DNA from: a virus
Taxonomy: Duplodnaviria > Heunggongvirae > Uroviricota > Caudoviricetes
Length of the DNA stretch: 64,000 nucleotides
Strand: one strand, 5' to 3'
Virus record (IMG/VR): IMGVR_UViG_3300033692_000022
The stretch's first letter is position 1; every line of letters starts with the position of its first letter. Below, one piece after another: positions 15,460 through 47,897 of this stretch. The translations under genes and the position numbers were made by a program. The notes under the pieces were generated by a model. That model did no database searches. It was not told where the DNA came from and was given only the letters and a program-made list of their open reading frames with translations.

Positions 15460-15472
15460 TACTAAATAAATA

Positions 15473-33325: not shown

Positions 33326-33355
33326 AAACTAAATTAAGAAAGAGGAAGTGATAAA

Positions 33356-34129: not shown

Positions 34130-34144
34130 ATAGGGGGAATTAGA

Positions 34145-34582
34145 ATGTATGTACTAATTAATTTAGATAAAAAATCTATATATGGCTTTTCTTCTAGTAA
34201 GCCAAACATAAAAGATCTTATTTCAATCAATAGAACAGCCGTAGAATATACTGGAGAACTCAGTTATGACTCGCTAAGGCCAGTTATTGATAATGGTGAC
34301 GTAATATCGGTAAAAGAAAAGACTAAATATCAGTTAAGTGCGTCTACAACTCAAATAAATGCTGGCGGCGAAGATAGAACATTTGTAAACATCAAAGTAG
34401 ATGATGGAGACGAAGATCAGGTAATGTTTAAAGTAAATGATGAAAAAGTAGGTACTGTATATACTGAGGGAGGCACAACCGAACTCGAATTTACAGCTGA
34501 TAGTCCCGGTATCTACACAATAACAGCAGAAAGTATTAATAAAAGGTATATCAGTAACTCAATAGACATAGAGGTGATATAA
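34145..34582 (+). CDS. Small Ig-like (Big_2-type) domain protein
   Basis: TFVNIKVDDGDEDQVMFKVNDEKVGTVYTEGGTTELEFTADSPGIYTITAES is a Big_2-like beta-sandwich pattern. Confidence 0.35.
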   Translation: MYVLINLDKKSIYGFSSSKPNIKDLISINRTAVEYTGELSYDSLRPVIDNGDVISVKEKTKYQLSASTTQINAGGEDRTFVNIKVDDGDEDQVMFKVNDEKVGTVYTEGGTTELEFTADSPGIYTITAESINKRYISNSIDIEVI

Positions 34583-34704
34583 TGAGCGGCCTTAAATTTA
34601 ATGGCAAGAATCCTAAAGAAAAGACCGACAAAGAAAGAATAACTGAACTCGAAGAAAAGATAGCAAAATTGGAAAAAATCATAGAAGAAAATACAACTAA
34701 TTAG
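34582..34704 (+). CDS. Small coiled-coil protein (40 aa), absent from the ORF track
   Basis: The ATG overlaps the upstream stop (TAATG) and is preceded by GAGGTGA. The product is MSGLKFNGKNPKEKTDKERITELEEKIAKLEKIIEENTTN. Confidence 0.25.
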   Translation: MSGLKFNGKNPKEKTDKERITELEEKIAKLEKIIEENTTN

Positions 34705-34715
34705 GAGGTTTTTAG

Positions 34716-35543
34716 ATGTCTTTTTTAGACCAACTACCAGAATGGAATGCACCAACAATGAAAATTCACACCCCAACTCCCAAGAAACAGGAAGAGGGTT
34801 GGAATATAGATGAAAGACCTCCTGCCGGTTATTTTAACTGGTTTTGGACAACTGTGTCTGACGCATTAAGAATCTTAGATACTCACAATCATGACTACAA
34901 GTATGTAATTAGAGGGGAAGACAATGTAATATCTTCTGAGATGATACAAAAAAACATCATCAATGAAGAACATTTTAGAGAAAATATAGACTTTAAACAG
35001 TTTATACCAGAAATAGACAGCCACCAGCATGATAACTATTTACAAAAAGACGGAGACACCATGAGTGGCCCTCTAAGACTTGGCGATAATTCAACACTAG
35101 TTAAAGAAACACCAAATGGAGATCACATTATAATAGATGAAAACGGTAGAGTATGGAACTCTGTTTACAATGATATCGCAGAACTTTATGAAGCTGACCC
35201 AAAAGTCAAAGAAGGCCAGGTACTAATCTGGGACGGAGAAAAAGTAAGAACAACATTTAAAGCAGAAGACGAGAGAGTTATAGGAGTATATTCAAATACA
35301 TTTGGATACTGTCTTGGAGGACAGCCAACTACTATTAATAAAGTTCCTATAGGTATTAGCGGTAAAGTCAAGACAAAGGTTAAAGGCCCAGTTAGACCAG
35401 GAGACCTCCTGACTACTTCAGAAATACCCGGGGTTGCTAAAAAGTCCGAGAATAAAAAACTTGGAACAATATTTGGTAAAGCCATGGAAGACATAGAAAA
35501 AGATAAGATTAAGACAATCTGGGTATTCATTGCGGTGATATAA
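34716..35543 (+). CDS. Tail fiber with conserved N-terminal anchor and a DGDTMSGPL fiber motif
   Basis: N-terminal LPEWNAPTMKIHTP...GWNIDERPPAGYFNWFWTTVSDALRILDTHNHDYKY. SHQHDNYLQKDGDTMSGPLRLGD is a recurrent phage fiber motif. Confidence 0.5.
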   Translation: MSFLDQLPEWNAPTMKIHTPTPKKQEEGWNIDERPPAGYFNWFWTTVSDALRILDTHNHDYKYVIRGEDNVISSEMIQKNIINEEHFRENIDFKQFIPEIDSHQHDNYLQKDGDTMSGPLRLGDNSTLVKETPNGDHIIIDENGRVWNSVYNDIAELYEADPKVKEGQVLIWDGEKVRTTFKAEDERVIGVYSNTFGYCLGGQPTTINKVPIGISGKVKTKVKGPVRPGDLLTTSEIPGVAKKSENKKLGTIFGKAMEDIEKDKIKTIWVFIAVI

Positions 35544-36374
35544 ATGGGATTATTAAATAATATACCGGGCTGGAATGCCCCAGAAGAAAAAGTAGTAGAG
35601 CCAAAACAGGTAAAAAAAGATAGCGGCTGGAATCCAGGAGAAAGACCACCCGCATATGTATTTAACTGGATGTGGAACATGGTATCAAATGCCCTAGAAA
35701 CACTGAGCAATCACTTACATGATGATAGGTACTCAAAGAAAGACCACACTCACAGCGTGACTGAAGTATCTGGTAAGATAGATAATGCAGCTTATGCTGA
35801 TAACGCAGACAAGTTAGATGGTAGAGACGCCTCGGATTTTGCCTCAAGTTCACACTCCCACCCCTACTCTCCAGAAAACCACACCCATGATGGAAGATAC
35901 TATAAAGAATCTGAAGTCAACAACCTTATAAATAACCTACAAAATGAAGTAAACAATCTTAAAAACCAATCTATGGATCTTGAAAATGTTTATCCAGTAG
36001 GATCGCTATATTTTAATGCAGTCAGCGGTCAAAACCCTGAAACTCTTTTAGGTTTTGGTAAGTGGCAGCGCTTTTCTAAAGGTAGAGTATTAGTAGGATT
36101 AGATGAAAGTGATGGTAATTTTAACGGGTTACAGGAAAGAGGAGGAGCAAAAACACACAGACTTACCGATGCAGAAATGCCAAAACACAAACATATCTCG
36201 CCTTATGGTGATACTTGGAACACTCCATGGGGGACATATGGTAACTGGAAAACAGGTTCTGGGGATTCAGATAGTGACAACCACTACCACTGGACAAGTC
36301 CAGCAGGAGGAGATAAGCCACACAACAACCTGCAGCCTTATATCACGGTCTATATTTGGCGCAGAACACAGTAA
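35544..36374 (+). CDS. Tail fiber with conserved N-terminal anchor, HxH repeats and a tail-collar-like C-terminal domain
   Basis: N-terminal IPGWNAPEEKVVEPK...GWNPGERPPAYVFNWMWNMVSNALETLSNHLHDDRYSKKDHTH. The C-terminal PVGSLYFNAVSGQNPETLLGFGKWQRFSKGRVLV...GGAKTHRLTDAEMPKHKHI...PHNNLQPYITVYIWRRT is paralogous to the 32708 C-terminus. Confidence 0.55.
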   Translation: MGLLNNIPGWNAPEEKVVEPKQVKKDSGWNPGERPPAYVFNWMWNMVSNALETLSNHLHDDRYSKKDHTHSVTEVSGKIDNAAYADNADKLDGRDASDFASSSHSHPYSPENHTHDGRYYKESEVNNLINNLQNEVNNLKNQSMDLENVYPVGSLYFNAVSGQNPETLLGFGKWQRFSKGRVLVGLDESDGNFNGLQERGGAKTHRLTDAEMPKHKHISPYGDTWNTPWGTYGNWKTGSGDSDSDNHYHWTSPAGGDKPHNNLQPYITVYIWRRTQ

Positions 36375-36387: not shown

Positions 36388-38367
36388 ATGCCACTAACAG
36401 AAACAGAAGTAGAAAATAGGATTATAGAGTTAGAGTCGGCTCTCGACTTACACAATCATATAACATCGTTTAGTGATGGTAGTGGTGGCAATCCGATACA
36501 AAGTAACGCATTAGATTCTGAGCTTAAAACAGAGATAGAAACTAATATCTCTCACAGAGATGTAGTCGACGCAAATCCACATCAAACAAAAGCCCACCAG
36601 ATACAGATAACAGCAGGAGATTATGCTTCACATAATATCCAACAGGCACTAGATATAATAAAGTCTAAAAGCAAAAATGACTATAGCGAGTTAGAAGAGT
36701 TAAGCAATGCCCTTGCTAATACGATTAAGACTGGCGATGCAGTAACTGATTGGACAATAGAAGAGTCATCTATTAAAAACAACAGAGCTTTATTTAATAA
36801 GATAGAATCTCATAATCATGATTCAAGATATACGAAACCATTTGAGCTAGAAAATGAGATTAACAGTCACTCTGAAAGCAACGCTCATGATGAAAGATAT
36901 TACACTAAAAACTATTTAGACAGTGAATTTGGAACAAAATCTGATAAGACACATCTTCATGATGCAATCTATCTTAGAAGACCAGAACTTGATGACTTAT
37001 ATTTTAATGTAGCCGATGACGAATTAAATATCGACCTAGAAATCAATAAGACATCTCCTAAGCTGACATTAAATGATGAATCAACCAATGGTAAGCTGGT
37101 AGAGATAACCTCCACAGATGAAAGATTCCTGCTTAAGATGAACGGCAATAATAAGCTGGACCTTCAAAATGATTTAGTAGTGGATATACCTGGTAATATA
37201 ATTCTTAGAGACACTCCAGTATCACTCGAAGGACACGTGCATGATAATAGATATTATCAAAAATATCAGGTAGAAGACTTACTATCAACTAAATCGGAAC
37301 AAGGCCATATTCATGATCATATATATTACAGACAGTCAAAGGTTCATAGCCTATTGGATGAGAAGACAGATTTAGATCATAAACACGAAGATATTTATTA
37401 CAATAAAACAGCAGCAGATAATAGGTTTGTTAATAATACCGTAGACACAATAGATGAATTAACAGTAAATGACAAACTGAACCTTAACGACAGGGCATAT
37501 TTTGATGAAAGTGGTTTGATTTTTAAAAGCTACAATTCAACAATAAGTATCGATAATGATAGTGATAATAATTTAGGTCTCAATATTAGGTCTGGAAACT
37601 TAGATCAAATATATCTCAATACGGATAAAGTAAAAGTAAGAAGTAATCTTGAAGTTGTAGGAGATATTCATCTAGGCCATAAAATAAATGGAGTCAAAAT
37701 AGAAGATTTTAAAGCAGAATATGATTTCCACGCATCAAAAGATGATGCTCACCATGAAAAATATACTGACCGAGAAGCAAGGGTCGCAATATATAATGAT
37801 GGCAACCATTATGAAATGGCAGACCATGTGCATAATCACAACACCCTTTATTATAAAAAAGAGTATATAAATTCAGCTCTATCCCAGAAGGCCGATAAAG
37901 ATCATGACCATGATTCAATGTATATGAGAATAGAAGAGGTAATAGAAAGACTAGATAATAAATCAGACAAGGGTCATCTCCACGATACAAGATACTATAC
38001 TAAAGATGAGATGAATCAACAGATAACCCTAATCGGAGATGAACTCCAGCTTAAGTCTGATAAGGGTCATGATCATAATGAAACATATTATACTCAGGCT
38101 GAAGTGGACCAGGAGATAAAAGATAAGACAGGTAATAGTGCCTATGTTGTAAGTGGTGAAATAATAACAGACATCAATGGTAGAGCAAAATTACCAATAC
38201 CATCCGGCTTTGATAGGCACGAGTGCCATTATATGGCCTCTGCTGGCCAGAATACTTTAGTTCCTTATTCCAGCTCTGGCGTGGAGATAAACAGAAATAC
38301 TGGAGATATACAAGTAAGTCCAAGTAGTGTAGATGCAGTAAACTATATGGTAATTGGAATCAGGTAG
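36388..38367 (+). CDS. Long fiber protein (659 aa) built from approximately 12 HxHD-x-RYY-TK histidine repeats
   Basis: Repeats include SHNHDSRYTK, AHDERYYTKNY, THLHDAIYLRR, GHVHDNRYYQKY, GHIHDHIYYRQS, DHKHEDIYYNK, HVHNHNTLYYKKEY, DHDHDSMYMRIEE, GHLHDTRYYTKDE, GHDHNETYYTQAE. Confidence 0.5.
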   Translation: MPLTETEVENRIIELESALDLHNHITSFSDGSGGNPIQSNALDSELKTEIETNISHRDVVDANPHQTKAHQIQITAGDYASHNIQQALDIIKSKSKNDYSELEELSNALANTIKTGDAVTDWTIEESSIKNNRALFNKIESHNHDSRYTKPFELENEINSHSESNAHDERYYTKNYLDSEFGTKSDKTHLHDAIYLRRPELDDLYFNVADDELNIDLEINKTSPKLTLNDESTNGKLVEITSTDERFLLKMNGNNKLDLQNDLVVDIPGNIILRDTPVSLEGHVHDNRYYQKYQVEDLLSTKSEQGHIHDHIYYRQSKVHSLLDEKTDLDHKHEDIYYNKTAADNRFVNNTVDTIDELTVNDKLNLNDRAYFDESGLIFKSYNSTISIDNDSDNNLGLNIRSGNLDQIYLNTDKVKVRSNLEVVGDIHLGHKINGVKIEDFKAEYDFHASKDDAHHEKYTDREARVAIYNDGNHYEMADHVHNHNTLYYKKEYINSALSQKADKDHDHDSMYMRIEEVIERLDNKSDKGHLHDTRYYTKDEMNQQITLIGDELQLKSDKGHDHNETYYTQAEVDQEIKDKTGNSAYVVSGEIITDINGRAKLPIPSGFDRHECHYMASAGQNTLVPYSSSGVEINRNTGDIQVSPSSVDAVNYMVIGIR

Positions 38368-38385
38368 GAGGAAAGGAGGATTAAT

Positions 38386-38844
38386 ATGTATTACTTATTA
38401 GACAAAGACACATTAGAAATTAAAGCCTCCTTAAGAGGTAAACCAAACATGGAGGAGATTGAAAAAAATAATATAACAGCAATTAATTCATCATATCAAT
38501 ATTCTCCTAGAAAACTTAAGGCCATTGAAAAAGATGGAGAAATAAATATAGAGTTCAGACCAGAAATCAAAGCAAAAATAAAAAATACAGGAAACTATAT
38601 AAAAGTAGATGCAATGGTTAGAAGAGAAGACGGAACGGTTAATCAAGAAATAAATGATGAACTTACTATTACAGTAGAAAAATATGAAGACAAGGAGATA
38701 ATTACAGAAAAAACACTAATCATAAATTCTGGAGAGGGTTTCAAAAACTTTAACATTGGAGAAACTGGAAGATTTGTGGTTAGAGTTAAGCACGATAAGT
38801 TTAGTGAAGCCTCTGATTATATATCTGTTAAGGAGGTTATGTAA
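38386..38844 (+). CDS. Hypothetical virion protein
   Basis: 152-aa ORF with ribosome-binding site GGAGGAAAGGAGGATTAATATG. Confidence 0.3.
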   Translation: MYYLLDKDTLEIKASLRGKPNMEEIEKNNITAINSSYQYSPRKLKAIEKDGEINIEFRPEIKAKIKNTGNYIKVDAMVRREDGTVNQEINDELTITVEKYEDKEIITEKTLIINSGEGFKNFNIGETGRFVVRVKHDKFSEASDYISVKEVM

Positions 38845-39452
38845 TGCCAAAAATAGTAAAAAAAGCAGATGGAACATATGAAATAAGAAAAACTGAATTC
38901 GAGATAGAAGTTGAAAATAATATAAAAAATCTATGGGAAACTGTTGAACTAAATAATGAGGAATCAATAAAAAGAGATGAAGAACTTGAAGAGTTAATAA
39001 TAAAAAACACAGATGAATTAAGAAGCTCATTAGATAAAGAAATAGCAGATAGAGAAGAAGACATATCTGAAATAAATAATAAAATAGATAATCAAACAAA
39101 TACTATAAATGCCGAGATAAACAGAATAGGAATAAAACTTGATAATGAAATAAGAAATAGCCTATCTGAAGCTGAAAGGTTAGACCAAAGGATAACTGAT
39201 GAAGCAAATAAAAGATACAATAGAGACTTAGAGATAGAAGAAAGTATAAATAACTTCAAAAGTCAGTTTGATTATGAAATAGACCGTCTAGATGGAGACA
39301 TAGAAAATATAGATAGGATAAATTCTTCTTTAAATCAAGTTCTCAATGAAAAAATGGAAATAATGGTAGTATCAGAACAAATGAGAAATATAATAGTTTC
39401 ACTAGAAGAACCAGTAGATGCAGAAGAGAATGACCTATGGGTTATAGCTTAA
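38844..39452 (+). CDS. Coiled-coil protein
   Basis: 202 aa, highly charged with heptad periodicity (EELEELIIKNTDELRSSLDKEIADREEDISEINNKIDNQ). Confidence 0.3.
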   Translation: MPKIVKKADGTYEIRKTEFEIEVENNIKNLWETVELNNEESIKRDEELEELIIKNTDELRSSLDKEIADREEDISEINNKIDNQTNTINAEINRIGIKLDNEIRNSLSEAERLDQRITDEANKRYNRDLEIEESINNFKSQFDYEIDRLDGDIENIDRINSSLNQVLNEKMEIMVVSEQMRNIIVSLEEPVDAEENDLWVIA

Positions 39453-39469
39453 AATAAAGGGGCGGTAAA

Positions 39470-39835
39470 GTGAAAAATATCGCCCTAAAAGGAGGTTCCA
39501 ATAATATGTACGAATACAAAGCAGTAGTTACAAGAATCATAGATGGTGACACATTCGAAGCCAACATAGATTTAGGCTTTAAAACCTACCAGCAGCAAAC
39601 ATTTAGGTTAAAAGGAGTAGATACTCCAGAAGTCTACGGCGCAGAAAAGGCAAGAGGGCTTAAGGCTTCAGATGTTGTAGAAAGAATGATACTTGGTAAA
39701 GAAGTAATAATCAGATCAGAAAAGTCTGGCAGCTTCGGCCGCTGGATAGCAGATGTAGATATAGAAACAGACAGAGGAAAAGTAAACTTAAACCAGTTTC
39801 TTTTGGATAATGGGTTAGCAAATAAATATGAATAG
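39470..39835 (+). CDS. Staphylococcal-nuclease (SNase/thermonuclease)-like protein
   Basis: YKAVVTRIIDGDTFEANIDLGFKTYQQQTFRLKGVDTPEVYG...GKEVIIRSEKSGSFGRWIADV matches the SNase core (V.DGDT....RL.G.D.PE...GR). Confidence 0.55.
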   Translation: MKNIALKGGSNNMYEYKAVVTRIIDGDTFEANIDLGFKTYQQQTFRLKGVDTPEVYGAEKARGLKASDVVERMILGKEVIIRSEKSGSFGRWIADVDIETDRGKVNLNQFLLDNGLANKYE

Positions 39836-39847
39836 AGGTGCATAATA

Positions 39848-42334
39848 GTGGCCAATGATTATATAGAAGATTTCATGAGCACACTTCCAAAGTACCAGAG
39901 AAAAGAAATGCACAAGATACTCGGGGAAGAGGAAGAACTCGACCTAATAAAGAGCAAAGAAGAATATGAGTCAGAGCTTGAGAAACTTATAAGTAAGATA
40001 AATGAAGAGTCTCCAGAACCCCTGATGAAGACCAGGGAGCAGAAAAACAAAACCAACTCTGAAGATTTCAACGAAACTTTTAGCGAAGTAAATATAGACC
40101 TCAATTCATTATTTCACCAATCGACAGGTCTCGACAATATAATTTCTAAACATCATCAGCTAAATAAATCGGGACTTATGATGATAAAAGACAATATCAA
40201 ACAAATTGAAAATGAAGTGGAAAGATACATGATGCTGCTTGGGAACAATGAAGGTTTTGTCGATTCCTTCTATGAAACATTTTTGACATCTTCCAATGTT
40301 GAAAAAGACAGCAAGTACTACACGGATCCTGCAAGTGGTGGCATTATAGAAAATGACAGGCGAGCAGAGATAGACCAGACAGGAGAGTCTTTAAAGCTGG
40401 CCACTACAGAAAGCATTGATGCTATCACAAACGATAACGGCTCTAAGATGGCCAAAGTTAATATCTTAAGGCAACCCGGCAGTGGATTTATAGGCGAAGC
40501 CAACAAAACATACGACATAGAAAAAGCGATAGATACTGACCTTGAGAGCTTCTGGGGAGAAGTAATACTATCAGACAAAGAAATGAGAATAGACTTTAGT
40601 GATTTTAATATAACTGAAGGTGCCTTCTGTGAGTTCGAGGTAGTATTTAACTCGTTATCTGTTATATCCGAGATAACAATGGCCCCTTTTACAGAGTTCC
40701 CAATAGATGTGCTTGGCATTAGATCATATGACGGCCTTGAGGATTCTGCAGAGATAACAGAAATAATAACTCCAGATAATTCGATACCAATCGACGAACC
40801 AGAAACTATACAGTTTGAAGCTATAGAGTCGCGAAGATTAGTATTTGTAGTAAACCAGAAACACTACCGAGAAAACAACTATCTTATCAAAAAATCAGAG
40901 AGAAATAATATAGAGATGTGGCAGAAAATAAGCAACAAGGAAAAAGAAGTAACTCTTTCTGGTAACTGGGAGGATGAGGAGAGAGAGAACATCAACCCTA
41001 CAGTAAGTCAGGATTTTCTCAATACAATAAGCGGCTGGGACCTATACGAAAGAAAACTTAAAGAGTTTAATAGAATGGTCGCTAAAAACAGAAGTTCTTC
41101 TAATACCTGGGGTCTTATCGGAGGCATACTAACAGCAGGAGCTGTAGTAATGACCGGCGGCGCACTATCACCAGCATTAACACTGGGAGCATTAGGTGCC
41201 GGGATAGGAGTAGGTAACGCGATCAAAGAAGGACTCTTAGAAGATTACGACTTCAGAAAAGATAAACTTGTAGAAGTAGATAAAAAAGAATACATCTACG
41301 GCCTCTATGACCTTGATATAAGAGGTAATAAATACCTAAACAGTTCGATATATGTATCAAAACCGATCAGTACACCACCAAATCTAGCTCAGGTGGCACT
41401 TGATACAACTGAAGTGCACCCAGATGTTGATGGTAAAGAAGTAACAGATATAGAATTTTATGTTACTAATATGGATGAACCTACAGATGATGACTGGTAT
41501 CCCATACTTCCTAACAATAAAAAAATAATAAAGTCTGAAAGATTATTTTTAGATGCCAGAACAAGTAAGGCCAGGCTTAAATTTGAAGTAGAGAAAATGA
41601 ACAGCATAGAGATATATAAGAATAGCGAAAAACTTCCAGCTTCTAAGTATGATATTAGTAATATCTCAGAGAATGGAAGAGTAATAACAGAAGTTACATT
41701 CCACGACTTCGAGATAAACGCTATCTATTCTGCCTCCTACAGACCTAAAAGTAGTGCACATCTGATTGATTTTACAAGCTCTGAAGACACAACCAAACTC
41801 ACAGCAACAGAGAAGTTCAAGAATGGAGCTGGCAGAAACGGCAGCATAAACTTAAAACACTATCCATATATAGACTACGAGAAAATAAATATGGCCGAGA
41901 AAGCAGAGGAAGATGGTTATGATCCAAATACTAACAATTATCGCCCGATAGAAGTAAAACTTAACGGCGAGTTCGAGGGTATAAACACATCTGTAATTCA
42001 ACCATATCATAAGAATACAGCCGGGCCAGCAACCAAAAACACTACTGATTATACAAGTAAGATACAGACTACTCTTAGAGGTTATGATAAAGATAGCAAT
42101 CCTTATTTCGAGTACAGACAGGATGGCAATAAACTATTTTTTAATGACACATTTAATGAATACGACAATGTAGACAGCATAAGGGCTAATGCAGAAATAG
42201 AGGTAAAGTATTCCTACCTTATCTCAAAGCTAAGAGTAAAAGCCGTAATGAGAAGAAATGTTCCCGGCAATGAATCTGTAACTCCAATACTTGAAGATTA
42301 CACCCTTAAGTTTAAGACAGTTAATATAGGGTAG
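39848..42334 (+). CDS. Large virion-associated protein, paralog family member 1, with discoidin/F5-8-type-C-like domain and a glycine-zipper hydrophobic segment
   Basis: N-terminal coiled region with EDFNETFSEVNIDL. IDTDLESFWGEVIL is an FA58C-like motif. WGLIGGILTAGAVVMTGGALSPALTLGALGAGIGVGNAI is a Gly-zipper TM-like segment. Confidence 0.4.
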   Translation: MANDYIEDFMSTLPKYQRKEMHKILGEEEELDLIKSKEEYESELEKLISKINEESPEPLMKTREQKNKTNSEDFNETFSEVNIDLNSLFHQSTGLDNIISKHHQLNKSGLMMIKDNIKQIENEVERYMMLLGNNEGFVDSFYETFLTSSNVEKDSKYYTDPASGGIIENDRRAEIDQTGESLKLATTESIDAITNDNGSKMAKVNILRQPGSGFIGEANKTYDIEKAIDTDLESFWGEVILSDKEMRIDFSDFNITEGAFCEFEVVFNSLSVISEITMAPFTEFPIDVLGIRSYDGLEDSAEITEIITPDNSIPIDEPETIQFEAIESRRLVFVVNQKHYRENNYLIKKSERNNIEMWQKISNKEKEVTLSGNWEDEERENINPTVSQDFLNTISGWDLYERKLKEFNRMVAKNRSSSNTWGLIGGILTAGAVVMTGGALSPALTLGALGAGIGVGNAIKEGLLEDYDFRKDKLVEVDKKEYIYGLYDLDIRGNKYLNSSIYVSKPISTPPNLAQVALDTTEVHPDVDGKEVTDIEFYVTNMDEPTDDDWYPILPNNKKIIKSERLFLDARTSKARLKFEVEKMNSIEIYKNSEKLPASKYDISNISENGRVITEVTFHDFEINAIYSASYRPKSSAHLIDFTSSEDTTKLTATEKFKNGAGRNGSINLKHYPYIDYEKINMAEKAEEDGYDPNTNNYRPIEVKLNGEFEGINTSVIQPYHKNTAGPATKNTTDYTSKIQTTLRGYDKDSNPYFEYRQDGNKLFFNDTFNEYDNVDSIRANAEIEVKYSYLISKLRVKAVMRRNVPGNESVTPILEDYTLKFKTVNIG

Positions 42335-42344
42335 GAGGTATAAA

Positions 42345-44369
42345 ATGGCGGATAAATATAGAATAAAAAAACACAGCAATATCCTAATCAAGCAAGCTAA
42401 AGACATCATAGATAAGATAGGAAATAAGATAAGAGATAATAACCTATCAGAAGCCTCTAAAGTAACAAGAGAAATGCTTGAAGGATTAAAAGATATGTTT
42501 ACTAATATAGGTAAACCCGTAATGAAAAAGAGATATGCACCGGTTGATGGACCACCTTGGTCTGAGGATTACAATAAGACCATGGAAGAAATTAATGAGG
42601 ATTTATGGACTGCCTATAATGAAATGGAATCACTACAGGACGGAGTTAAAACTGACTTTAACTTTAACAGCACACAGAGAGAGAACCTGAAAAATAGAAT
42701 AAAAGTACTTGAAGAAAGATTAGAAGATTTTGTACTATTTACAAATATAGATAATGACTTAGTGCACGCTAAGGATACTTTTAAAAACTTAAGTAAAGTT
42801 GATGTTCGAGGTACGAGGCTCAAATCAGCAGATGTAGAAACCGAAACAGGTCTTGTTACGCTAGAAAAGTCAGGATCAGAAAACCTATCTAGCAGCTGCA
42901 AGGTAAATATAGTAAGAAGCGACTCCAATGGTTTTCCTGGAAACTTACATCAAGTTAAAAATATAGCTTATGATGGAGCGACTCGTTTTAAACCTATAAA
43001 AAGAAAAGAACCAGAATGGAAGTTCTATGGCGAAGAAGATATGCACATCGTACCCGAGTACATGATAGATGAAAATCCAGATACCTGGTTTGAATATGAA
43101 ACTTGTGACATCCCAGTAGGCAAAAAAAGGCAACAGAAATTTTACGGTTTTGACTATAAGGGAGGAGAACAGTGGAGCAGAGACCCAGTAGAGCCTTACA
43201 AAAGAAGTGGAAACTATCAGGATACAAACAAACCAAACACTGAAAAACCATTAAGGCTTAGTATAGAACTTTCTTTAGAAGAAGCTCAAGTAATAAACTG
43301 GATAAATGTAAATCCTTATATACCGGCATTCGATGGTTCTGCTCCTCCTAAGATAATTGATATCTTAGTGTCAGACGGAGCAGGTTACGAGACTTCAGTA
43401 CTTGATTCAAATCATAAAAACCTAACACTATCAGAAGAACTCAATGAAACAAATCAGACTTATGAAAAAGATGAGGTAACGGGCAACAAAAACTTCGCTG
43501 GACAAGCAGTGTTCACATTCCCACCCACTAAAGCTAAAGTAATATCAATAATAATAGAACAGGAATCGCCTTATAACTGTAGGATAGGACATATTTACTA
43601 TCAGAGAGTAGATAAAATAAAGATTGAAGAAAGCGGCGCCTTTGGAGGTCTATTTGGAGGGGATGAGACCTCATACGAAACTAAAAGAACATATATTGAA
43701 GGGCCGAAAGTAGGATTATCACAATTGTATACAGAATGGGATGATAACTTAGGTATTACAGATTTGGGTGAAGATACATTCTTAGAGCCTATAACAGACA
43801 TATTGGGAGGGATATCAGGGTTCTTATTTGGCAGCACTGAAAAATCTCTTGTTAGCTCAAAGATAGAGTCTGGAATACATGGCTTCGAGGGATGGCGATG
43901 GGCTATAGGCGTTAAAGGAATAAACGTTTATGCTTTTGAGTATGCAGAACAGGGCGAGCTTTTATCAAAGACCCATATAGTTGGAGATAAAATAAAAAGA
44001 GTATCTCTTAATGTAAATGAAGAAATACCTGATATATTCGTCAATAACGAAAACTATGATAGAAGAAATGACTGGATTAAATACTATATATCTATTGACG
44101 GTAATACCTGGCACCGCATAAGCCCAGAAGGGCACGATGAAACAATAGAAAACGATGAGCTGGTACCAGAAGTATACATTATAAATAGTGAGGTTTCAGA
44201 AGAGAATAGAAACCCAAATGCAGGATACATCGAAACCGAAACTGATCCAGTAAACATCAAATTCAAGGCCATACTATCAAGGCCAACTAATATAGAGCAG
44301 GCAGAACATTTTACTCCAGTACTAAGAGGATATGCTCTAAAAATGCAAACTGAAGGTGAGAATGTATGA
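42345..44369 (+). CDS. Large virion-associated protein, paralog family member 2 (discoidin-like domain)
   Basis: The N-terminal block SEDYNKTMEEINEDLWTAYNEMESL is shared. MIDENPDTWFEYETCDIPV is the FA58C-like motif. ILGGISGFLFG is a Gly-rich hydrophobic patch. Confidence 0.4.
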   Translation: MADKYRIKKHSNILIKQAKDIIDKIGNKIRDNNLSEASKVTREMLEGLKDMFTNIGKPVMKKRYAPVDGPPWSEDYNKTMEEINEDLWTAYNEMESLQDGVKTDFNFNSTQRENLKNRIKVLEERLEDFVLFTNIDNDLVHAKDTFKNLSKVDVRGTRLKSADVETETGLVTLEKSGSENLSSSCKVNIVRSDSNGFPGNLHQVKNIAYDGATRFKPIKRKEPEWKFYGEEDMHIVPEYMIDENPDTWFEYETCDIPVGKKRQQKFYGFDYKGGEQWSRDPVEPYKRSGNYQDTNKPNTEKPLRLSIELSLEEAQVINWINVNPYIPAFDGSAPPKIIDILVSDGAGYETSVLDSNHKNLTLSEELNETNQTYEKDEVTGNKNFAGQAVFTFPPTKAKVISIIIEQESPYNCRIGHIYYQRVDKIKIEESGAFGGLFGGDETSYETKRTYIEGPKVGLSQLYTEWDDNLGITDLGEDTFLEPITDILGGISGFLFGSTEKSLVSSKIESGIHGFEGWRWAIGVKGINVYAFEYAEQGELLSKTHIVGDKIKRVSLNVNEEIPDIFVNNENYDRRNDWIKYYISIDGNTWHRISPEGHDETIENDELVPEVYIINSEVSEENRNPNAGYIETETDPVNIKFKAILSRPTNIEQAEHFTPVLRGYALKMQTEGENV

Positions 44370-46393
44370 GCATAAAAAGAAGACACATCAGAGAAAAACT
44401 TGAGAAAGTAATCAAGGAAGAGATACAAAAAGGGAAATATCCGAGCACAGAAACCATAAATAAGAGAATGAGCGATGAATTTGATAAGCATACTCCTGGA
44501 CTACCAAAGTTTAAACCTATAGAGGCCCCCAAAAACGGAGTCTCCGATCCTCACGACTATAACGAAATGATAGATAATATCTATGACGATCTGCATATGG
44601 TATTTTCAGAGACATCATCTCAGGCAAAACGGCTCTTAAAGAACTTCGACTACGGGGAGGTCGAAAGAAATAAGATACTAAAGAGACTCGAGAGATTAAG
44701 TGATAATATAGATAACCTGCTTCTTTTAGCCGAAAACACCGAAGGCTATTTGGAAAGTCTTTATGATAACTTCCACGACTACTCTAAGGTTAATATGGAA
44801 AACACTACAGCAAATGTTGATCTTAGCAGCAGGGAAGTTACTTTAAGCCAGATAAAAAGCGATGGTAAAAAATATTCACTCAGAAACAGAAGGTACAGTA
44901 TAAACACTTTAGATGATGGCAGCAGCATAGAAAATATAGAATCATTTAATAATGCACTCGATGATTATCTCAATACAGCCTGGCTATCTAAGGTAACTAA
45001 GAAAGAAAAGGGGCCAGCCTCAATAGAGGTAGTAATAAACCTAACAGAACTCGATAACGATAAGGATAATCCGCTGGCAGATGAGATACCAGTAAGCTCA
45101 ATAAGTTTTGTAGATTCAAGTCCAGATATCACAAACCTATCTGTTATGTGGTCTAATGATGACATAAATTACTTCTATATAGACGATAACAAAAGAAGTG
45201 TTGATGTAATAGAAAAAGAGACATTTACCTGTGAAGAAACATATATGCAGTACATCAAACTAATCTTAACCAAAGATAAACCAGACGAACAGTTAAGCGA
45301 TGGCCGCTATATATACAGGTTCGGCGCCAAAGGAATAGATGTTAAAAAGGTAGGGTTTAAGGAAGCAGGTAGATTTGAGTCTAAGTATCTTACAATAGAA
45401 AACACAGATGAAACCAATCCTATTAATCAGGTAGCTTTAAATGTTGAAGATGAGACTCCTAAATTCACTTCGATAGATTACTTCCTCCGCTTTCCACAAA
45501 GTAACGGCTTCATTCCAATCAGTCCGATAGATGATCCTAATCCTAAACACCAGAAGGTAATAAACCTCGAAAACATCTCCACACCTAACCCTGTAAATAT
45601 ATCGGGCGGCAAAAACAACTATTTAACCCACAACGGTATAGACTTCTATAAACTTAAGACACTTGAACATACCCCAAGAAAAAATAGCGTAGAGCTATTC
45701 AGGGGTAAAAACATGTGGAAGAAGGAAGAATTTAATACCTCGACTTATGAGGGAATGGATACAAGGCATAACCCGATAGGAAAAGACTGGCTTAACCTAC
45801 CAGAAGATGTATCAGAAAAGGATATTAAAAAGAGCTTCATTAATGCAACTGGCAACCTGAGCAAAGATAGCAGCAAGGGTACGATGACCAGATGGACTAC
45901 TTACCTTTACTGCAGTTCAACTAAGGTAGTAAAAGAAACAATGACAACTGCAGGAGATATAAACTCTAATATTATTCTAAATGGAAGTACTATCAGCATA
46001 GATGAAAACGGAAAGTATGTTTTAAGAATACCAGAAGGCTGGAATAAGATAGAAGTCCTAAATTACAATATAAATGGTCACAGCGGCAACTTAAACATTA
46101 ATTTCAATCCAAAGACTGTAGGGAAGATGATAGCAGAAAATGCTCCACTCCAAGAAGTTAGTCTATATGACTTAAAGAATAATGTTTTGATGAATGACAA
46201 CAATAAGTTTGCTATGGACGAAGATAAAATCATATTAAATTATAATCCAGACGGTATTGGATACGAGGTAAGCTATTCTTACGGGATAGCAAATAACTTC
46301 AATGAAATAAAGTTTGCTGCAGAGTTAAAGAGAGAAAAAGATATAGCAGATCTTACTCCGAGACTCAAAAAGTACAACATAAGGATATCTTAG
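44366..46393 (+). CDS. Large virion-associated protein, paralog family member 3 (discoidin-like domain)
   Basis: PHDYNEMIDNIYDDLHMVFSETSSQ and ALDDYLNTAWLSKV motifs. The start overlaps the upstream stop (ATGA). Confidence 0.4.
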   Translation: MSIKRRHIREKLEKVIKEEIQKGKYPSTETINKRMSDEFDKHTPGLPKFKPIEAPKNGVSDPHDYNEMIDNIYDDLHMVFSETSSQAKRLLKNFDYGEVERNKILKRLERLSDNIDNLLLLAENTEGYLESLYDNFHDYSKVNMENTTANVDLSSREVTLSQIKSDGKKYSLRNRRYSINTLDDGSSIENIESFNNALDDYLNTAWLSKVTKKEKGPASIEVVINLTELDNDKDNPLADEIPVSSISFVDSSPDITNLSVMWSNDDINYFYIDDNKRSVDVIEKETFTCEETYMQYIKLILTKDKPDEQLSDGRYIYRFGAKGIDVKKVGFKEAGRFESKYLTIENTDETNPINQVALNVEDETPKFTSIDYFLRFPQSNGFIPISPIDDPNPKHQKVINLENISTPNPVNISGGKNNYLTHNGIDFYKLKTLEHTPRKNSVELFRGKNMWKKEEFNTSTYEGMDTRHNPIGKDWLNLPEDVSEKDIKKSFINATGNLSKDSSKGTMTRWTTYLYCSSTKVVKETMTTAGDINSNIILNGSTISIDENGKYVLRIPEGWNKIEVLNYNINGHSGNLNINFNPKTVGKMIAENAPLQEVSLYDLKNNVLMNDNNKFAMDEDKIILNYNPDGIGYEVSYSYGIANNFNEIKFAAELKREKDIADLTPRLKKYNIRIS

Positions 46394-46403
46394 GGGGGAT
46401 ATA

Positions 46404-46649
46404 ATGAGCAATTATAATATAGAGATGAAAAAGAGAAATGCCCGTTATCGCGGAGCAACTGAAAGTTATAAGTATTTAATAGATGCTCATGAAAGAATAG
46501 CCGACTTTCAAAACGCCTATGAAAATATAGAAAACACCAGAGAAAGTCTGGGAGATAGGAATAACTTAAGGCAGGAAAAAGATGAAAATGCCGCGCGGAT
46601 TACAGTAGTCAAAAAAGAATTAGATGCAATAATAAAGGAGGTAAGTTAA
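46404..46649 (+). CDS. Small hypothetical protein
   Basis: 81-aa ORF with ribosome-binding site TAGGGGGGATATAATG. Confidence 0.3.
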   Translation: MSNYNIEMKKRNARYRGATESYKYLIDAHERIADFQNAYENIENTRESLGDRNNLRQEKDENAARITVVKKELDAIIKEVS

Positions 46650-47897
46650 ATGGATAACGAGTTTACTCCAAGTTTAAAGAAACCCAATGTGAGATACAGA
46701 GGTAAAACCTCCAGTGAAGAATATAACCAGATGACAGAAGATCTATACTACGATCTGAGCAACATCTTCACTGAGACAAACAAAAACTCAAAGTATGCAA
46801 CCGAGCTAGTAGAACAACTTACACTAGAAAACAATATCTTAAGTAACCAGATAGATGAACTGGAAAGCAAGCTCGAAAACGTAAAGAATCTATTAGTAGA
46901 AATTCAAAAGCGGAATAACCAGTTTAATAAATCGGTATTTGTTGGTGATTTCATAGAGGATCAGGAGCAAAATAACATCAACAAAGCCTTTATAGATAAA
47001 GAACACAGGGTAACTACTCTCCCCATAAGCGGGAAAGGAATAAGTAAGACACATATTTATGATTCATTTAAGGAGGAGGTGTTTATACCAGATGAGCTAA
47101 AGATATATTTCGACAAAGAGATCAACAGCTATCCAGACGCTGAAGAGAACGACCCTAAGAACGCATTTGATGGCCAGGACGAATCAGTGTGGATTAGACA
47201 GATAAGGTATCCAGAAGACGAGCCAAGATCAGAAGAAGAACTGACAATGTATGTCAAACTTCCTGAGAACATCATCAATAATAGACTAATGAATACTATA
47301 GTCGTCCATCCATTTCCTATTAATGGCTTAGATATCTTAAGTATAGAGTACTCAAAAGATGTAACCAATGATATGTCAAAGGCTAACTGGCAGATGATAC
47401 CAGGCTGGCCAAGAGACGAAAAACAGGACCTTACTACAGTTAATGATTCTGGCCCGGTCAAGTTCTGCTTTGAAGATATTAAAGCAAGCTGGATCAAGGT
47501 TAAATTAAGGCAGAAAAACAGTATAGTTAAGGGTAACATGAAGATATTTAACATAGGCTTAAAGCAGTTTGATATCAAATACAACAACTATACTTCAGAA
47601 AAGGCTTCATTTATAGTACCTGTAGACCTAACTGCACCAGAATCAGTACTTTATACAGTAAAAGACATACAAGCTGTAATAGATAATCAAAGCACTATTT
47701 CTAAAGATTATAGGCCTCTAACCTATGAGATATACGGAGTCAACCAGTTCGGAGAATTAGAATACATTGGGGATAACTTACCAATCAAAAACATTAAGTT
47801 TGAGAGGATTCAGATTAAAGCCACGATACATGCAGATAAAAACAAGGAATCAACTCCTGCGGTATCAGCCTTTAAGGTATTTTATGAGTCCATTTAA
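46650..47897 (+). CDS. Virion-associated protein, paralog family member 4 (discoidin-like domain)
   Basis: SEEYNQMTEDLYYDLSNIFTETNKN shared block. NAFDGQDESVWIRQI...VKFCFEDIKASWIKVKL is a galactose-binding-like / FA58C pattern. Confidence 0.4.
   Translation: MDNEFTPSLKKPNVRYRGKTSSEEYNQMTEDLYYDLSNIFTETNKNSKYATELVEQLTLENNILSNQIDELESKLENVKNLLVEIQKRNNQFNKSVFVGDFIEDQEQNNINKAFIDKEHRVTTLPISGKGISKTHIYDSFKEEVFIPDELKIYFDKEINSYPDAEENDPKNAFDGQDESVWIRQIRYPEDEPRSEEELTMYVKLPENIINNRLMNTIVVHPFPINGLDILSIEYSKDVTNDMSKANWQMIPGWPRDEKQDLTTVNDSGPVKFCFEDIKASWIKVKLRQKNSIVKGNMKIFNIGLKQFDIKYNNYTSEKASFIVPVDLTAPESVLYTVKDIQAVIDNQSTISKDYRPLTYEIYGVNQFGELEYIGDNLPIKNIKFERIQIKATIHADKNKESTPAVSAFKVFYESI

What the first reader, a model, noticed from the sequence alone, without database searches (positions are those of the whole stretch)
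39470..39835. A compact SNase-like nuclease is encoded inside the tail fiber module
**What the sequence shows**
- A 121-aa ORF with the staphylococcal nuclease core (DGDT...RL.G.D.PE...GR).
- It sits between a coiled-coil structural gene and four large discoidin-domain proteins.
- It is far from the DNA metabolism genes.
- It is shorter than canonical thermonuclease (about 150 aa) and lacks a signal peptide.

**Interpretation**
- Candidate roles:
 - a virion-associated nuclease that degrades extracellular DNA, biofilm matrix or NETs;
 - a moron gene;
 - an inactive SNase-fold OB module used structurally.
Basis: partly seen in the sequence, partly recalled or inferred. Interest (0 to 1): 0.6.

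Follow-up and report, generated by a model that had tools for sequence, protein, structure and literature searches.

The report
Minimal SNase nuclease in tail operon
A jumbo phage related to Bacillus phage 0305phi8-36 carries a small, apparently active staphylococcal-nuclease-type gene wedged between its tail-fibre genes and a conserved block of virion genes; the enzyme type is common in phages, and only its position is unusual.

Summary
The ORF is real, but it most likely starts at ATG 39506 (109 aa) rather than GTG 39470. It is a clear SNase-family protein: Pfam E 6e-10, PHROG 452 E 1e-29, AlphaFold pLDDT 91, and S. aureus nuclease as the top PDB fold match. All six catalytic and Ca-binding residues are present (D21, R35, D40, T41, E43, R87 in S. 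aureus numbering), so the "inactive OB module" reading fails.

The short length is normal for this subfamily. About 9,000 cluster representatives match, most of the best are 105-125 aa, and 625 phage records carry a homologue.

The window is a 0305phi8-36-like jumbo phage. The gene sits between a hairpin that ends the variable fibre block and the gp171-175 virion-protein block, 12 nt upstream of the gp171 homologue. One related lineage has it at the same spot (75% identity, dN/dS 0.15). A third close lineage and four more distant relatives lack it. It is therefore an accessory gene, probably transcribed late.

The "discoidin" label for the downstream proteins is not supported. Virion association is untested; the only hint is that tail-hub proteins of relatives often carry fused nuclease domains.

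Verdict: a new member of a known kind, of modest interest.

The parts
39506..39835 (+). CDS of the compact SNase-family nuclease: 109 aa plus the TAG stop at 39833-39835.
   Evidence: Pfam SNase E 6.4e-10. PHROG 452 E 1e-29. Public gene calls give 109 aa. AF2 pLDDT 91. Foldseek top hits are S. aureus nuclease, TM 0.73-0.78. Catalytic residues are conserved. dN/dS is 0.145.
39470..39505 (+). Probably not translated.
   Evidence: The GTG lies in the hairpin loop. A strong RBS precedes ATG 39506. The orthologue in L040 starts at the equivalent ATG.
39488..39495 (+). Ribosome-binding site AAAGGAGG, 10 nt upstream of ATG 39506.
   Evidence: Read directly from the sequence. The same arrangement (hairpin, AGGAGG, ATG) occurs in L040.
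39459..39486 (+). Hairpin with a 9-bp stem and 10-nt loop, just after the stop codon of the last fibre-block gene. It marks the boundary where the nuclease gene is inserted.
   Evidence: RNA fold. Hairpins at the equivalent position in L040 (dG -17.9, z -4.5) and in the SNase-less L039. No T-run follows, and the consensus scan does not call it a terminator.
39835..39840 (+). RBS (GAGGTG) of the downstream gp171-like gene. It overlaps the last base of the nuclease stop codon, and only 12 nt separate the two genes.
   Evidence: Read directly from the sequence. The same TAGAGGTG junction is conserved in L040. This implies co-transcription with the gp171-175 block.
38844..39452 (+). Upstream neighbour: a 202-aa Glu/Lys/Ile-rich protein, the last gene of the variable fibre block.
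   Evidence: No Pfam or PHROG hit. Weak similarity to the 536-aa fibre-block protein of L040 (23% identity, E 1e-6).
39848..42334 (+). Downstream neighbour: an 828-aa homologue of the 0305phi8-36 virion protein gp171.
   Evidence: PHROG 20243 E 3e-132. tblastn and blastp matches to ORF171. gp171 was identified in virions by mass spectrometry, according to the GenBank note.
42345..47897 (+). Rest of the conserved block: gp172-like (42345-44369), gp173-like (44366-46393), an 81-aa gene (46404-46649) and gp175-like (46650-47897).
   Evidence: PHROGs 21108, 19683 and 19670. Collinear blastp matches to gp172, gp173 and gp175.

Best explanation
The gene encodes a catalytically competent, minimal member of the staphylococcal (micrococcal) nuclease family: an OB-fold barrel plus two helices, 109 aa, free-standing and cytoplasmic.

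**Chemistry (inferred from the conserved residues)**
- Asp15, Asp39 and the Thr40 backbone bind Ca2+.
- Glu42 activates the attacking water.
- Arg34 and Arg79 stabilise the phosphate transition state.
- The expected result is sequence-nonspecific cleavage of DNA or RNA to 3'-phosphorylated products.

**Evolution (shown)**
- It is an accessory gene that entered one sublineage of 0305phi8-36-like jumbo phages.
- It sits at the junction between the variable tail-fibre block and the conserved gp171-175 virion-protein block.
- It has since been inherited vertically under purifying selection.

**Expression (inferred from anatomy)**
- It has its own strong RBS.
- It lies 12 nt upstream of the gp171-like gene, with no terminator between them.
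- It is therefore probably made late, together with the structural proteins.

**Biological role (inferred, the weakest step)**
- It has no signal peptide, no adjacent inhibitor gene and a Ca2+-dependent active site.
- It would therefore accumulate almost inactive at the sub-micromolar free Ca2+ expected in the cytoplasm.
- It would become active when lysis exposes it to external Ca2+.
- It would then degrade released host DNA, unpackaged DNA and matrix DNA, so that progeny are not trapped, while packaged genomes stay protected.
For: **Family membership and fold**
- Pfam SNase and PHROG 452 hits.
- AF2 pLDDT 91.
- Foldseek probability 1.00 to many S. aureus nuclease structures and to stand-alone viral TNase-like proteins.

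**Active site**
- Residue-by-residue alignment to S. aureus nuclease.
- D13, G14, D15, T16, R34, E42, G78 and R79 are invariant in 53 homologues. D39, T40, P41 and W80 are at least 90% conserved.

**A self-sufficient short core**
- The best PDB sequence match is 1RKN, a 110-residue chain that reads GRW where the full-length chains read GRG.
- The query and its relatives also have W at that position.

**Accessory status and vertical descent**
- L040, L041 and L042 have a 75%-identical copy upstream of a 71%-identical gp171 homologue.
- L039 and L051 (gp171 homologue 52% identical) go straight from the hairpin to the gp171 homologue.
- There is no SNase in the equivalent regions of 0305phi8-36, KLEB27-3, MTATph1 or L043.
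- dN/dS is 0.145.
- GC content (0.38-0.39) matches the downstream genes.

**Operon integration**
- The hairpin-RBS-ATG arrangement and the TAGAGGTG junction are conserved in L040.
- No terminator-like site lies nearby.

**No secretion signal or partner gene**
- Read directly from the sequence and the neighbours.

**Ca2+/Mg2+ dependence of SNase used together with lysis**
- PMC5362813 describes this, citing Haidinger 2003.
Against: - No activity, expression or localisation data exist.
- Most homologues sit in early or DNA/nucleotide-metabolism regions. That fits an intracellular role in DNA degradation or salvage, which this copy may have kept.
- The Ca2+ requirement is extrapolated from the S. 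aureus enzyme. This subfamily lacks the Y113/Y115 loop and helix 3 and has F for Y85 and S for K84, so substrate range and metal needs may differ.
- The promoter scan says nothing about phage late promoters, so late timing is inferred only from position.
- Fused nuclease domains on tail hubs of relatives leave room for a virion-linked role.
Confidence: 0.5

Rival explanations
1. Intracellular host-DNA degradation or nucleotide salvage. The enzyme works inside the infected cell, as its homologues encoded next to thymidylate synthase, dNMP kinase, ligase and polymerase genes presumably do. Its position in the structural region is then only an accident of where the cassette landed.
For: Homologue contexts:
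- NCTB, next to thymidylate synthase and dCMP deaminase.
- L011, among ligase-like, phosphoesterase, dNMP kinase and DNA polymerase genes.
- L054, next to a PDDEXK nuclease and AAA_24.
- Staphylococcus phage Southeast, near a Holliday-junction resolvase and a methyltransferase.

The protein has no signal peptide.
Against: - Tight coupling to late virion genes (12 nt, shared junction) implies late synthesis. That is late for salvage, and risky for replicating and packaging phage DNA unless the enzyme is held inactive.
- No inhibitor gene is adjacent.
Confidence: 0.2
2. Virion-associated (tail or baseplate) nuclease. The free-standing protein docks non-covalently on the baseplate or fibre apparatus. 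It supplies in trans the nuclease that relatives carry as a domain fused to the tail hub protein. It would cut matrix DNA on the way in, or be delivered into the host.
For: - The gene lies inside the baseplate/fibre gene array and is translationally close to gp171-like virion genes.
- Hardies et al. 2007 reported an SNase-related domain on the hub homologue of the related BtI1 element.
- Among the 120 listed hub homologues, 28 carry Endonuclea_NS_2 (PF13930) and 2 carry an SNase-like domain with the same FGRW motif.
- This phage's own 1786-aa hub lacks any nuclease domain.
Against: - The protein is a bare 109-aa catalytic core with no extra segment for docking.
- The close relative L039/L051 has the same structural genes, no SNase gene at this site and no Pfam-detectable nuclease domain in its hub protein (P0129), yet is presumably viable.
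- The small ORFs at this position in 0305phi8-36 (ORF169, ORF170) carry no virion-protein annotation, unlike their neighbours, which were identified in virions by mass spectrometry.
Confidence: 0.15
3. Selfish, homing-like nuclease gene. The cassette spreads between co-infecting phages by cutting SNase-less genomes near the fibre/gp171 junction, like the free-standing homing endonuclease genes of T4-like phages.
For: - Presence/absence polymorphism exactly between two conserved genes.
- Homologues in other phages also sit at module borders:
  - just upstream of the gp17 gene (T4 nomenclature: large terminase) in cyanophage S-RIM8;
  - just downstream of the large terminase in Flavobacterium phage Fpv7;
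  - just after the invertible tail-fibre segment in phiH.
- Hardies et al. describe orfs 166-170, which end at this junction, as a swapped module.
Against: - SNase is not a recognised homing-endonuclease family.
- The protein has no DNA-recognition module beyond the catalytic core.
- Divergence of the gene (75%) tracks that of its neighbour (71%), with strong purifying selection. That indicates vertical inheritance and a function useful to the phage.
Confidence: 0.05
4. Counter-defence enzyme. The nuclease destroys a host nucleic-acid component or signal, for example defence RNAs or oligonucleotide messengers.
For: Only generic evidence. It is a small accessory phage gene with a patchy distribution.
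Against: - It has no association with known anti-defence loci.
- Late-operon placement is the wrong timing for counter-defence.
- The PADLOC and anti-defence libraries were not searched.
Confidence: 0.05
5. Catalytically dead SNase-fold (OB) module used as a structural or binding protein.
For: It is located among structural genes.
Against: All Ca2+-binding and catalytic residues are present and conserved family-wide.
Confidence: 0.02

Closest known systems
Staphylococcus aureus nuclease A (thermonuclease / micrococcal nuclease; Pfam PF00565)
   Same: - The same OB-fold core: Foldseek probability 1.00, TM 0.73-0.78 normalised to the query.
- The same Ca2+ ligands and catalytic residues: D21, D40, T41, R35, E43, R87.
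   Different: - About 27% identity.
- No signal peptide or propeptide.
- It ends at about SNase residue 113, so the Y113/Y115 loop, helix 3 and the W140 tail are missing.
- Trp at position 88, Phe for Y85 and Ser for K84.
- A short insertion carrying an invariant D-L-G in the beta2-beta3 hairpin.
PHROG 452 'endonuclease': compact stand-alone TNase-like proteins of phages (Staphylococcus SEP1-like and phiIPLA5-like phages, T4-like cyanophages, haloviruses phiH and HRTV-17, and others)
   Same: - The same size class, 105-125 aa, and the same motifs.
- HMM E 1e-29.
- 625 phage records carry a homologue.
- About 9,256 cluster representatives match at E <= 1e-3.
   Different: - At most 45% identity to any GenBank phage copy.
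- Most homologues lie among early or DNA-metabolism genes. This copy lies inside the late baseplate/fibre array.
- To my knowledge none of these phage copies has been characterised biochemically. This is from memory, and my literature searches found nothing.
SNase-like domain fused to the tail hub protein in the same phage lineage (BtI1 hub homologue of 0305phi8-36 gp147; Moorella thermoacetica MTAT_04800, P0132; P0133)
   Same: - The same phage lineage and the same tail context.
- The same compact 'FGRW' type of SNase core.
   Different: - The domain is covalently fused near the N-terminus of a protein of about 2,200 aa.
- It has Asn and Ala at the D40 and T41 positions.
- The window's protein is free-standing, with canonical D and T.
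Engineered SNase fragment 1-110 with G88W (PDB 1RKN)
   Same: - It is the best PDB sequence match.
- Almost the same length (110 vs 109 residues) and the same Trp after the catalytic Arg87.
   Different: - 1RKN is a laboratory truncation of the S. aureus enzyme.
- That G88W rescues folding of the truncated protein is recalled from the literature. I did not verify it here (one search found no held paper).
Phage morons (extra genes between conserved late genes, as in lambda and HK97)
   Same: It is an extra gene between two genes that are adjacent in a related phage.
   Different: - No promoter or terminator of its own was detected.
- Base composition is not deviant.
- It appears to be translationally linked to the downstream gene.

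Membership tests
Staphylococcal nuclease family (Pfam PF00565, SNase / TNase-like) | Sequence match to the family profile above the curated threshold. | tested here: met
   39.9 bits against a gathering score of 21, E 6.4e-10. A precomputed PF00565 hit is also recorded on the public gene calls.
Staphylococcal nuclease family (Pfam PF00565, SNase / TNase-like) | OB-fold five-stranded barrel with flanking helices. | tested here: met
   AF2 model pLDDT 91, pTM 0.82, with strands 2-11, 16-24, 27-35, 66-74 and 80-88 and helices 45-62 and 95-101. Foldseek top 50 PDB hits are all S. aureus nuclease, probability 1.00.
Staphylococcal nuclease family (Pfam PF00565, SNase / TNase-like) | Ca2+-binding residues Asp21, Asp40 and Thr41. 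| tested here: met
   D15, D39 and T40 align to these positions. D15 is invariant, and D39 and T40 are at least 90% conserved in 53 homologues.
Staphylococcal nuclease family (Pfam PF00565, SNase / TNase-like) | Catalytic residues Arg35, Glu43 and Arg87. | tested here: met
   R34, E42 and R79 align to these positions and are invariant in the family alignment.
Staphylococcal nuclease family (Pfam PF00565, SNase / TNase-like) | C-terminal substrate loop (Tyr113, Tyr115) and helix 3 of the canonical 149-aa enzyme. | tested here: not met
   The protein ends at about SNase residue 113, with no counterpart of residues 114-149. This is a feature of the canonical enzyme rather than of the Pfam family. 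Most close relatives also lack it.
Staphylococcal nuclease family (Pfam PF00565, SNase / TNase-like) | Ca2+-dependent hydrolysis of DNA and RNA to 3'-phosphate products. | not testable with these tools
   This needs a biochemical assay.
Secreted thermonucleases (S. aureus Nuc type) | N-terminal signal peptide or lipoprotein signal. | tested here: not met
   The N-terminus MYEYKAVVTR is beta-strand 1 itself. The alternative GTG extension, MKNIALKGGSNN, is not hydrophobic.
Virion-borne (tail hub) nucleases of the 0305phi8-36-like lineage | Nuclease domain covalently part of a structural protein, or carrying an anchoring domain. | tested here: not met
   It is a free-standing 109-aa core with no extra domain. 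The phage's hub protein (P0128) has no nuclease domain.
Virion-borne (tail hub) nucleases of the 0305phi8-36-like lineage | Presence in purified virions. | not testable with these tools
   This needs virion proteomics.
Virion-borne (tail hub) nucleases of the 0305phi8-36-like lineage | Co-conservation with the structural gene set. | tested here: not met
   It is absent from L039/L051, 0305phi8-36, KLEB27-3, MTATph1 and L043, all of which keep the gp171-like block.
Moron (autonomous extra gene in a late operon) | An extra gene between genes that are adjacent in related phages. | tested here: met
   In L039 the hairpin is followed directly by the gp171-like gene. In the window and in L040 the SNase gene lies between them.
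Moron (autonomous extra gene in a late operon) | Its own promoter and terminator, and a deviant base composition. | tested here: not met
   No promoter-like or terminator-like site flanks the gene, and the number of sites in the region is not above shuffled expectation. There are 12 nt to the next gene. GC is 0.38-0.39, like the downstream genes. Phage-specific late promoters could not be assessed.
Free-standing homing endonuclease genes | Membership of a recognised homing-endonuclease family plus a DNA-recognition module. | tested here: not met
   The only Pfam hit is SNase. The protein consists of the catalytic core alone.
Free-standing homing endonuclease genes | Sporadic presence between conserved genes. 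| tested here: met

The most novel reading that the evidence does not exclude
The free-standing SNase is the 'split' form of a nuclease-armed tail tip.

- In this jumbo-phage lineage the tail hub protein repeatedly acquires a non-specific nuclease domain. Two of the 120 listed hub homologues, plus the BtI1 element reported by Hardies et al., carry an SNase type. Twenty-eight of the 120 carry Endonuclea_NS_2.
- This phage's shorter hub lacks such a domain.
- The idea is that the phage instead encodes the nuclease as a separate subunit inside the baseplate/fibre operon.
- That subunit would assemble on the virion, or be delivered with it, and act on matrix or host DNA at the start of infection.
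Probability: 0.12. Interest if true: 0.55.

Novelty: new member of a known kind. Interest (0 to 1): 0.25.

Why it matters
On the best-supported reading this is an ordinary accessory nuclease of a very large, already catalogued phage family. It mainly corrects the annotation: the start codon, an active enzyme rather than a structural module, and no discoidin neighbours.

Two points have some wider value.

1. It is a clean natural example of a gene gained at the seam between a fast-swapping fibre module and a conserved virion block in the little-studied 0305phi8-36-like jumbo phages, with SNase-plus and SNase-minus relatives available for comparison.
2. Together with the nuclease domains fused to hub proteins in many relatives, it points to a testable idea: DNA degradation at the cell surface, or at lysis, may be a recurrent need of these phages.

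The family is also a natural 'minimal SNase', with about 110 residues and Trp at position 88. That could interest protein-folding and enzyme-engineering groups.

Tried and rejected
**Searches for relatives**
- Megablast of 38000-42500 against GenBank phages gave no match.
- An IMG/VR scan with the gp171-like protein found no relative.
- The metagenome scan with a gp171-like alignment returned only two loci, both from lineages already in hand. L051 is 99.8% identical to L039, and L052 is L040. The presence/absence history therefore rests on three close lineages and four distant ones.

**Literature**
- Searches for a studied function of phage SNase homologues, tail-associated SNases or the G88W fragment found nothing directly relevant.
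- GBSV1-NSN is unrelated, at 10% identity to SNase.
- 'Nuclease genes occupy boundaries...' concerns classical homing-endonuclease genes (HEGs) in ICP1.
- Haidinger 2003 is not held.

**Structure**
- AlphaFold of the 828-aa gp171-like protein from a 7-sequence alignment gave pLDDT 46. That is unusable, so no fold test of the 'discoidin' claim was possible.
- Pfam at E up to 10 gave only one faint F5_F8_type_C hit.

**Regulatory and RNA scans**
- The sigma-70 promoter and intrinsic-terminator scan found no more sites than in shuffled sequence, and nothing flanking the gene.
- Rfam and tRNA scans of the window were empty.

**Readings rejected**
- Rejected: an inactive OB module, because the residues are conserved.
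- Rejected: a recent horizontal import, because composition is normal and divergence tracks the neighbouring gene.
- Rejected: a toxin-immunity pair, because there is no SNase-specific partner gene. The 96/97-aa gene upstream in L040 also exists in the SNase-less L039.

**Weak hit disregarded**
- The BFVD hits to 'baseplate hub protein' (E 5e-5 and 0.03) probably reflect the generic OB domain of gp5-like hubs. I did not count them as evidence.
Full report
**1. What is at the coordinates**

An ORF runs from GTG 39470 to TAG 39835 on the + strand, 121 aa. The annotated start is probably wrong, for three reasons.
- The upstream gene stops at 39452. A hairpin with a 9-bp stem follows at 39459-39486, and GTG 39470 lies in its loop.
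- AAAGGAGG lies at 39488-39495, and ATG 39506 follows 10 nt later.
- The orthologue in a related phage and all public gene calls start at that ATG and give 109 aa.

The protein is MYEYKAVVTRIIDGDTFEANIDLGFKTYQQQTFRLKGVDTPEVYGAEKARGLKASDVVERMILGKEVIIRSEKSGSFGRWIADVDIETDRGKVNLNQFLLDNGLANKYE.

**2. Is it a staphylococcal-nuclease homologue, and is it likely active?**

Family and fold:
- It matches Pfam SNase (PF00565) at 39.9 bits against a curated cut-off of 21, E 6.4e-10.
- It matches PHROG 452 'endonuclease' at E 1e-29.
- An AlphaFold2 model built from 53 homologues has mean pLDDT 91 and pTM 0.82. It shows a five-stranded barrel with helices at 45-62 and 95-101.
- Foldseek against the PDB returns only S. 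aureus nuclease structures in its top 50, with probability 1.00 and TM 0.73-0.78 normalised to the query.
- Against BFVD the best hits are stand-alone viral 'TNase-like' proteins.

Active site:
- HMMER alignment to PDB chains and a MAFFT alignment that includes mature S. aureus nuclease A agree on the mapping.
- D15 = D21, R34 = R35, D39 = D40, T40 = T41, E42 = E43 and R79 = R87.
- D15, R34, E42 and R79 are invariant in the 53-sequence alignment. D39 and T40 are conserved in at least 90% of sequences.
The 'inactive structural OB module' option is rejected.

Differences from the canonical enzyme:
- There is no signal peptide or propeptide.
- The chain ends at about SNase residue 113, so the Tyr113/Tyr115 loop, helix 3 and the C-terminal tail are absent.
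- Y85 is Phe and K84 is Ser.
- The residue after the catalytic Arg is Trp (G88 in S. aureus).
- The best PDB sequence match is 1RKN, a 110-residue SNase chain that also reads GRW.
- From memory, not verified here: G88W is the substitution that lets the truncated 1-110 fragment fold. That would explain how a natural 109-aa SNase can be stable.

**3. Is the short length unusual?**

No.
- An exhaustive HMMER search of 1.84 billion cluster representatives finds 9,256 relatives at E <= 1e-3 and 1,744 at E <= 1e-10. Most of the best 150 are 105-125 aa and match end to end.
- tblastn finds a homologue in 625 GenBank phage records, all below 60% identity and at most 45% among those listed. They include Synechococcus and Prochlorococcus myoviruses, Staphylococcus phages, Flavobacterium, Arthrobacter and Streptomyces phages and haloviruses.
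- They are annotated 'endonuclease', 'nuclease' or 'thermonuclease'.

**4. What genome is this, and what surrounds the gene?**

- The window is identical to part of a 202,621-bp ENA metagenome contig.
- Its gene order matches Bacillus phage 0305phi8-36 and its relatives KLEB27-3 and Moorella phage MTATph1. The order is hub, baseplate, long Ig/FN3 proteins, fibre genes, gp171-175, holin/amidase, Rad52, primase, DnaB.
- The four large downstream proteins (828, 674, 675 and 415 aa) are collinear homologues of 0305phi8-36 gp171, gp172, gp173 and gp175.
  - According to the GenBank notes, gp171 and gp175 were identified in virions by mass spectrometry. gp172 and gp173 are listed as low-copy virion proteins, each detected from a single peptide.
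  - They are not demonstrable discoidin proteins. Pfam gives no hit at threshold, only one faint F5_F8_type_C match on the 674-aa protein at 15 bits against a cut-off of 28.
  - A structure prediction of the 828-aa protein failed, with pLDDT 46.
- Upstream lie tail-fibre paralogues with T4 Gp10 C-terminal domains and shared fibre N-termini. A 659-aa and a 152-aa protein follow, and then the 202-aa Glu/Lys-rich protein.
- The nearest DNA-metabolism gene, Rad52-like, starts 10.4 kb downstream.

**5. Evolutionary status**

- Three short contigs from other samples (L040-L042) carry a 75%-identical, 109-aa orthologue at the same spot.
  - It lies after a strong GC hairpin and directly upstream of a gp171 homologue that is 71% identical.
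  - The hairpin-RBS-ATG layout and the TAGAGGTG junction to the next gene are conserved there.
  - Nei-Gojobori dN/dS between the two copies is 0.145, with dS 1.33, near saturation.
- A third close lineage (L039, equivalent to L051, NCBI LSQX01184065.1) has a gp171 homologue that is 52% identical.
  - It has the same flanking genes and a hairpin at the same place.
  - It goes straight from the hairpin to the gp171 homologue. An HMM built from the family finds no SNase there.
- The same HMM finds none in the equivalent regions of 0305phi8-36, KLEB27-3, MTATph1 or L043.
- GC content of the gene (0.38-0.39) matches the downstream block.
- The simplest history is a single gain in the common ancestor of the window and L040 lineages, followed by vertical descent under selection.
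- The insertion point coincides with the border of the module (orfs 166-170) that Hardies et al. found swapped between 0305phi8-36 and BtI1.

**6. Where do homologues sit in other phages?**

Mostly among early or DNA and nucleotide-metabolism genes:
- next to thymidylate synthase and dCMP deaminase in phage NCTB;
- among ligase-like, phosphoesterase, dNMP kinase and DNA polymerase genes in the closest IMG/VR relative, L011;
- next to a PDDEXK nuclease and AAA_24 in L054;
- among small early-type genes in L053 and L055;
- near a Holliday-junction resolvase and a methyltransferase in Staphylococcus phage Southeast.

Some lie at structural-module borders:
- after the invertible tail-fibre segment of phiH;
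- upstream of the gp17 gene (T4 nomenclature: large terminase) in cyanophage S-RIM8;
- downstream of the large terminase in Flavobacterium phage Fpv7.

The position in this window is therefore atypical but not unique.

**7. A lead towards the virion**

- Hardies et al. (PMC2147016) reported that the hub-protein homologue of the related BtI1 element carries an SNase-related domain. They suggested that such domains come from stand-alone phage genes.
- I found the same pattern more broadly. The window's first ORF (5-2392) is the C-terminal part of a 1786-aa hub-region protein with DUF6046.
- Among its 120 best homologues:
  - 28 carry Endonuclea_NS_2 (PF13930). In P0150 it lies at residues 742-893, just N-terminal to DUF6046.
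  - 2 carry an N-terminal SNase-like domain with the same FGRW motif but Asn and Ala at the D40 and T41 positions. These are P0132, Moorella thermoacetica MTAT_04800, named 'TNase-like domain-containing protein' by UniRef, and P0133.
  - Others carry peptidoglycan hydrolase domains.
- PHROG 8809, a 2317-position profile, matches the nuclease at positions 1098-1204 and the window's hub fragment at 1726-1957.
- This phage's hub has no nuclease domain.
- This makes a trans-acting tail nuclease conceivable. Three points argue against it:
  - The 109-aa protein has no docking segment.
  - The SNase-less relative L039/L051 also has no Pfam-detectable nuclease domain in its hub protein, P0129.
  - The small ORFs at this site in 0305phi8-36 are not annotated as virion proteins.

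**8. Most likely mechanism**

Shown:
- SNase-family fold and a complete active site.
- Accessory status, with purifying selection.
- Tight physical integration upstream of the gp171-175 genes.
- No secretion signal and no partner gene.

Inferred:
- Ca2+-dependent, sequence-nonspecific cleavage by the SNase mechanism.
- Late co-transcription with the virion genes.
- Latency in the low-Ca2+ cytoplasm and activation when lysis exposes the enzyme to external Ca2+. It would then clear host DNA, unpackaged DNA and matrix DNA around the progeny.

The last step borrows from the known Ca2+/Mg2+ dependence of SNase and its use together with lysis genes in bacterial-ghost production. It is the weakest link. 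I give the whole statement a confidence of about 0.5.

Rivals:

| Rival reading | Confidence |
|---|---|
| Intracellular host-DNA degradation or salvage | 0.2 |
| Virion-associated tail nuclease | 0.15 |
| Homing-like selfish gene | 0.05 |
| Counter-defence enzyme | 0.05 |
| Dead structural module | 0.02 |

**9. Novelty and score**

The enzyme type, its compact form and its presence in phages are all catalogued (Pfam, PHROG 452 and hundreds of GenBank annotations). This is a new member of a known kind, in an unusual but explicable position. Interest is 0.25. The most novel reading still open is that it is a split, trans-acting version of the nuclease-armed tail hubs of this lineage. I give that a probability of about 0.12 and an interest of about 0.55 if true.

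Noticed in passing
window 5-2392 (C-terminal part of a 1786-aa protein; full gene at L044 4636-9996): Homologues of this tail-hub-region protein (DUF6046) form a large family of 1,775-3,093-aa proteins from jumbo-phage-sized contigs. They carry swappable enzymatic domains. Of the 120 listed, 28 have Endonuclea_NS_2 (PF13930) and 2 have an SNase-like domain. Others have LysM, NLPC_P60, Amidase_2, Amidase_3 or glucosaminidase domains. Nuclease-armed tail hubs seem common here, and apart from one remark in Hardies et al. 2007 I found no description of them.
   Followed up: partly
window 39459-39486; L040 1930-1949; L039 8183-8208; also window 15472-15491: A GC-rich hairpin without a T-run sits at the same position in three lineages, just after the last fibre-block gene, although its sequence differs in each. 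A similar strong intergenic hairpin, AGGCGGGG-GCTT-CCCCGCCT, lies between the genes ending at 15459 and starting at 15516. These may be RNA-stability or processing elements, or attenuators that punctuate the late operon.
   Followed up: partly
window 62796-63128: Four GC-rich hairpins (stems of 7-8 bp) cluster in an apparently non-coding stretch near the right end of the window, downstream of the replication genes. There is no Rfam or tRNA match.
   Followed up: no
window 32708-36374; L005 3037-3822: The window has a set of short tail-fibre paralogues. Two have T4 Gp10 C-terminal domains (32708-33325 and 35544-36374), and several share a fibre N-terminus (33356, 34716 and 35544). A near-identical phage from another sample (L005) has a 261-aa version of the first Gp10_C protein instead of the 205-aa version, while its nuclease is identical. 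This is strain-level variation in the likely receptor-binding genes.
   Followed up: no
window 27431-28228 and 28206-32696: The public gene call for the identical contig lists one 1775-aa product ending at 32696. The window shows two ORFs in different frames, of 265 aa and 1496 aa, overlapping by 23 nt. The 1775-aa length does not fit a simple continuous reading. It may be a frameshift or a quirk of the record. This remains unexplained.
   Followed up: partly
L040 1625-1918; L039 7866-8156: A 96/97-aa gene (39% identical between the two lineages) lies just before the hairpin in both the SNase-plus L040 and the SNase-minus L039. It is missing from the window phage, whose last fibre-block protein is also much shorter (202 aa against 531 and 536 aa).
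   Followed up: no
window 51797-52855: The primase-like protein combines weak matches to the eukaryotic/archaeal primase large subunit (PF04104) and to PriCT_1. This is an unusual pairing for a phage primase region. It is conserved in position with 0305phi8-36 ORF181.
   Followed up: no
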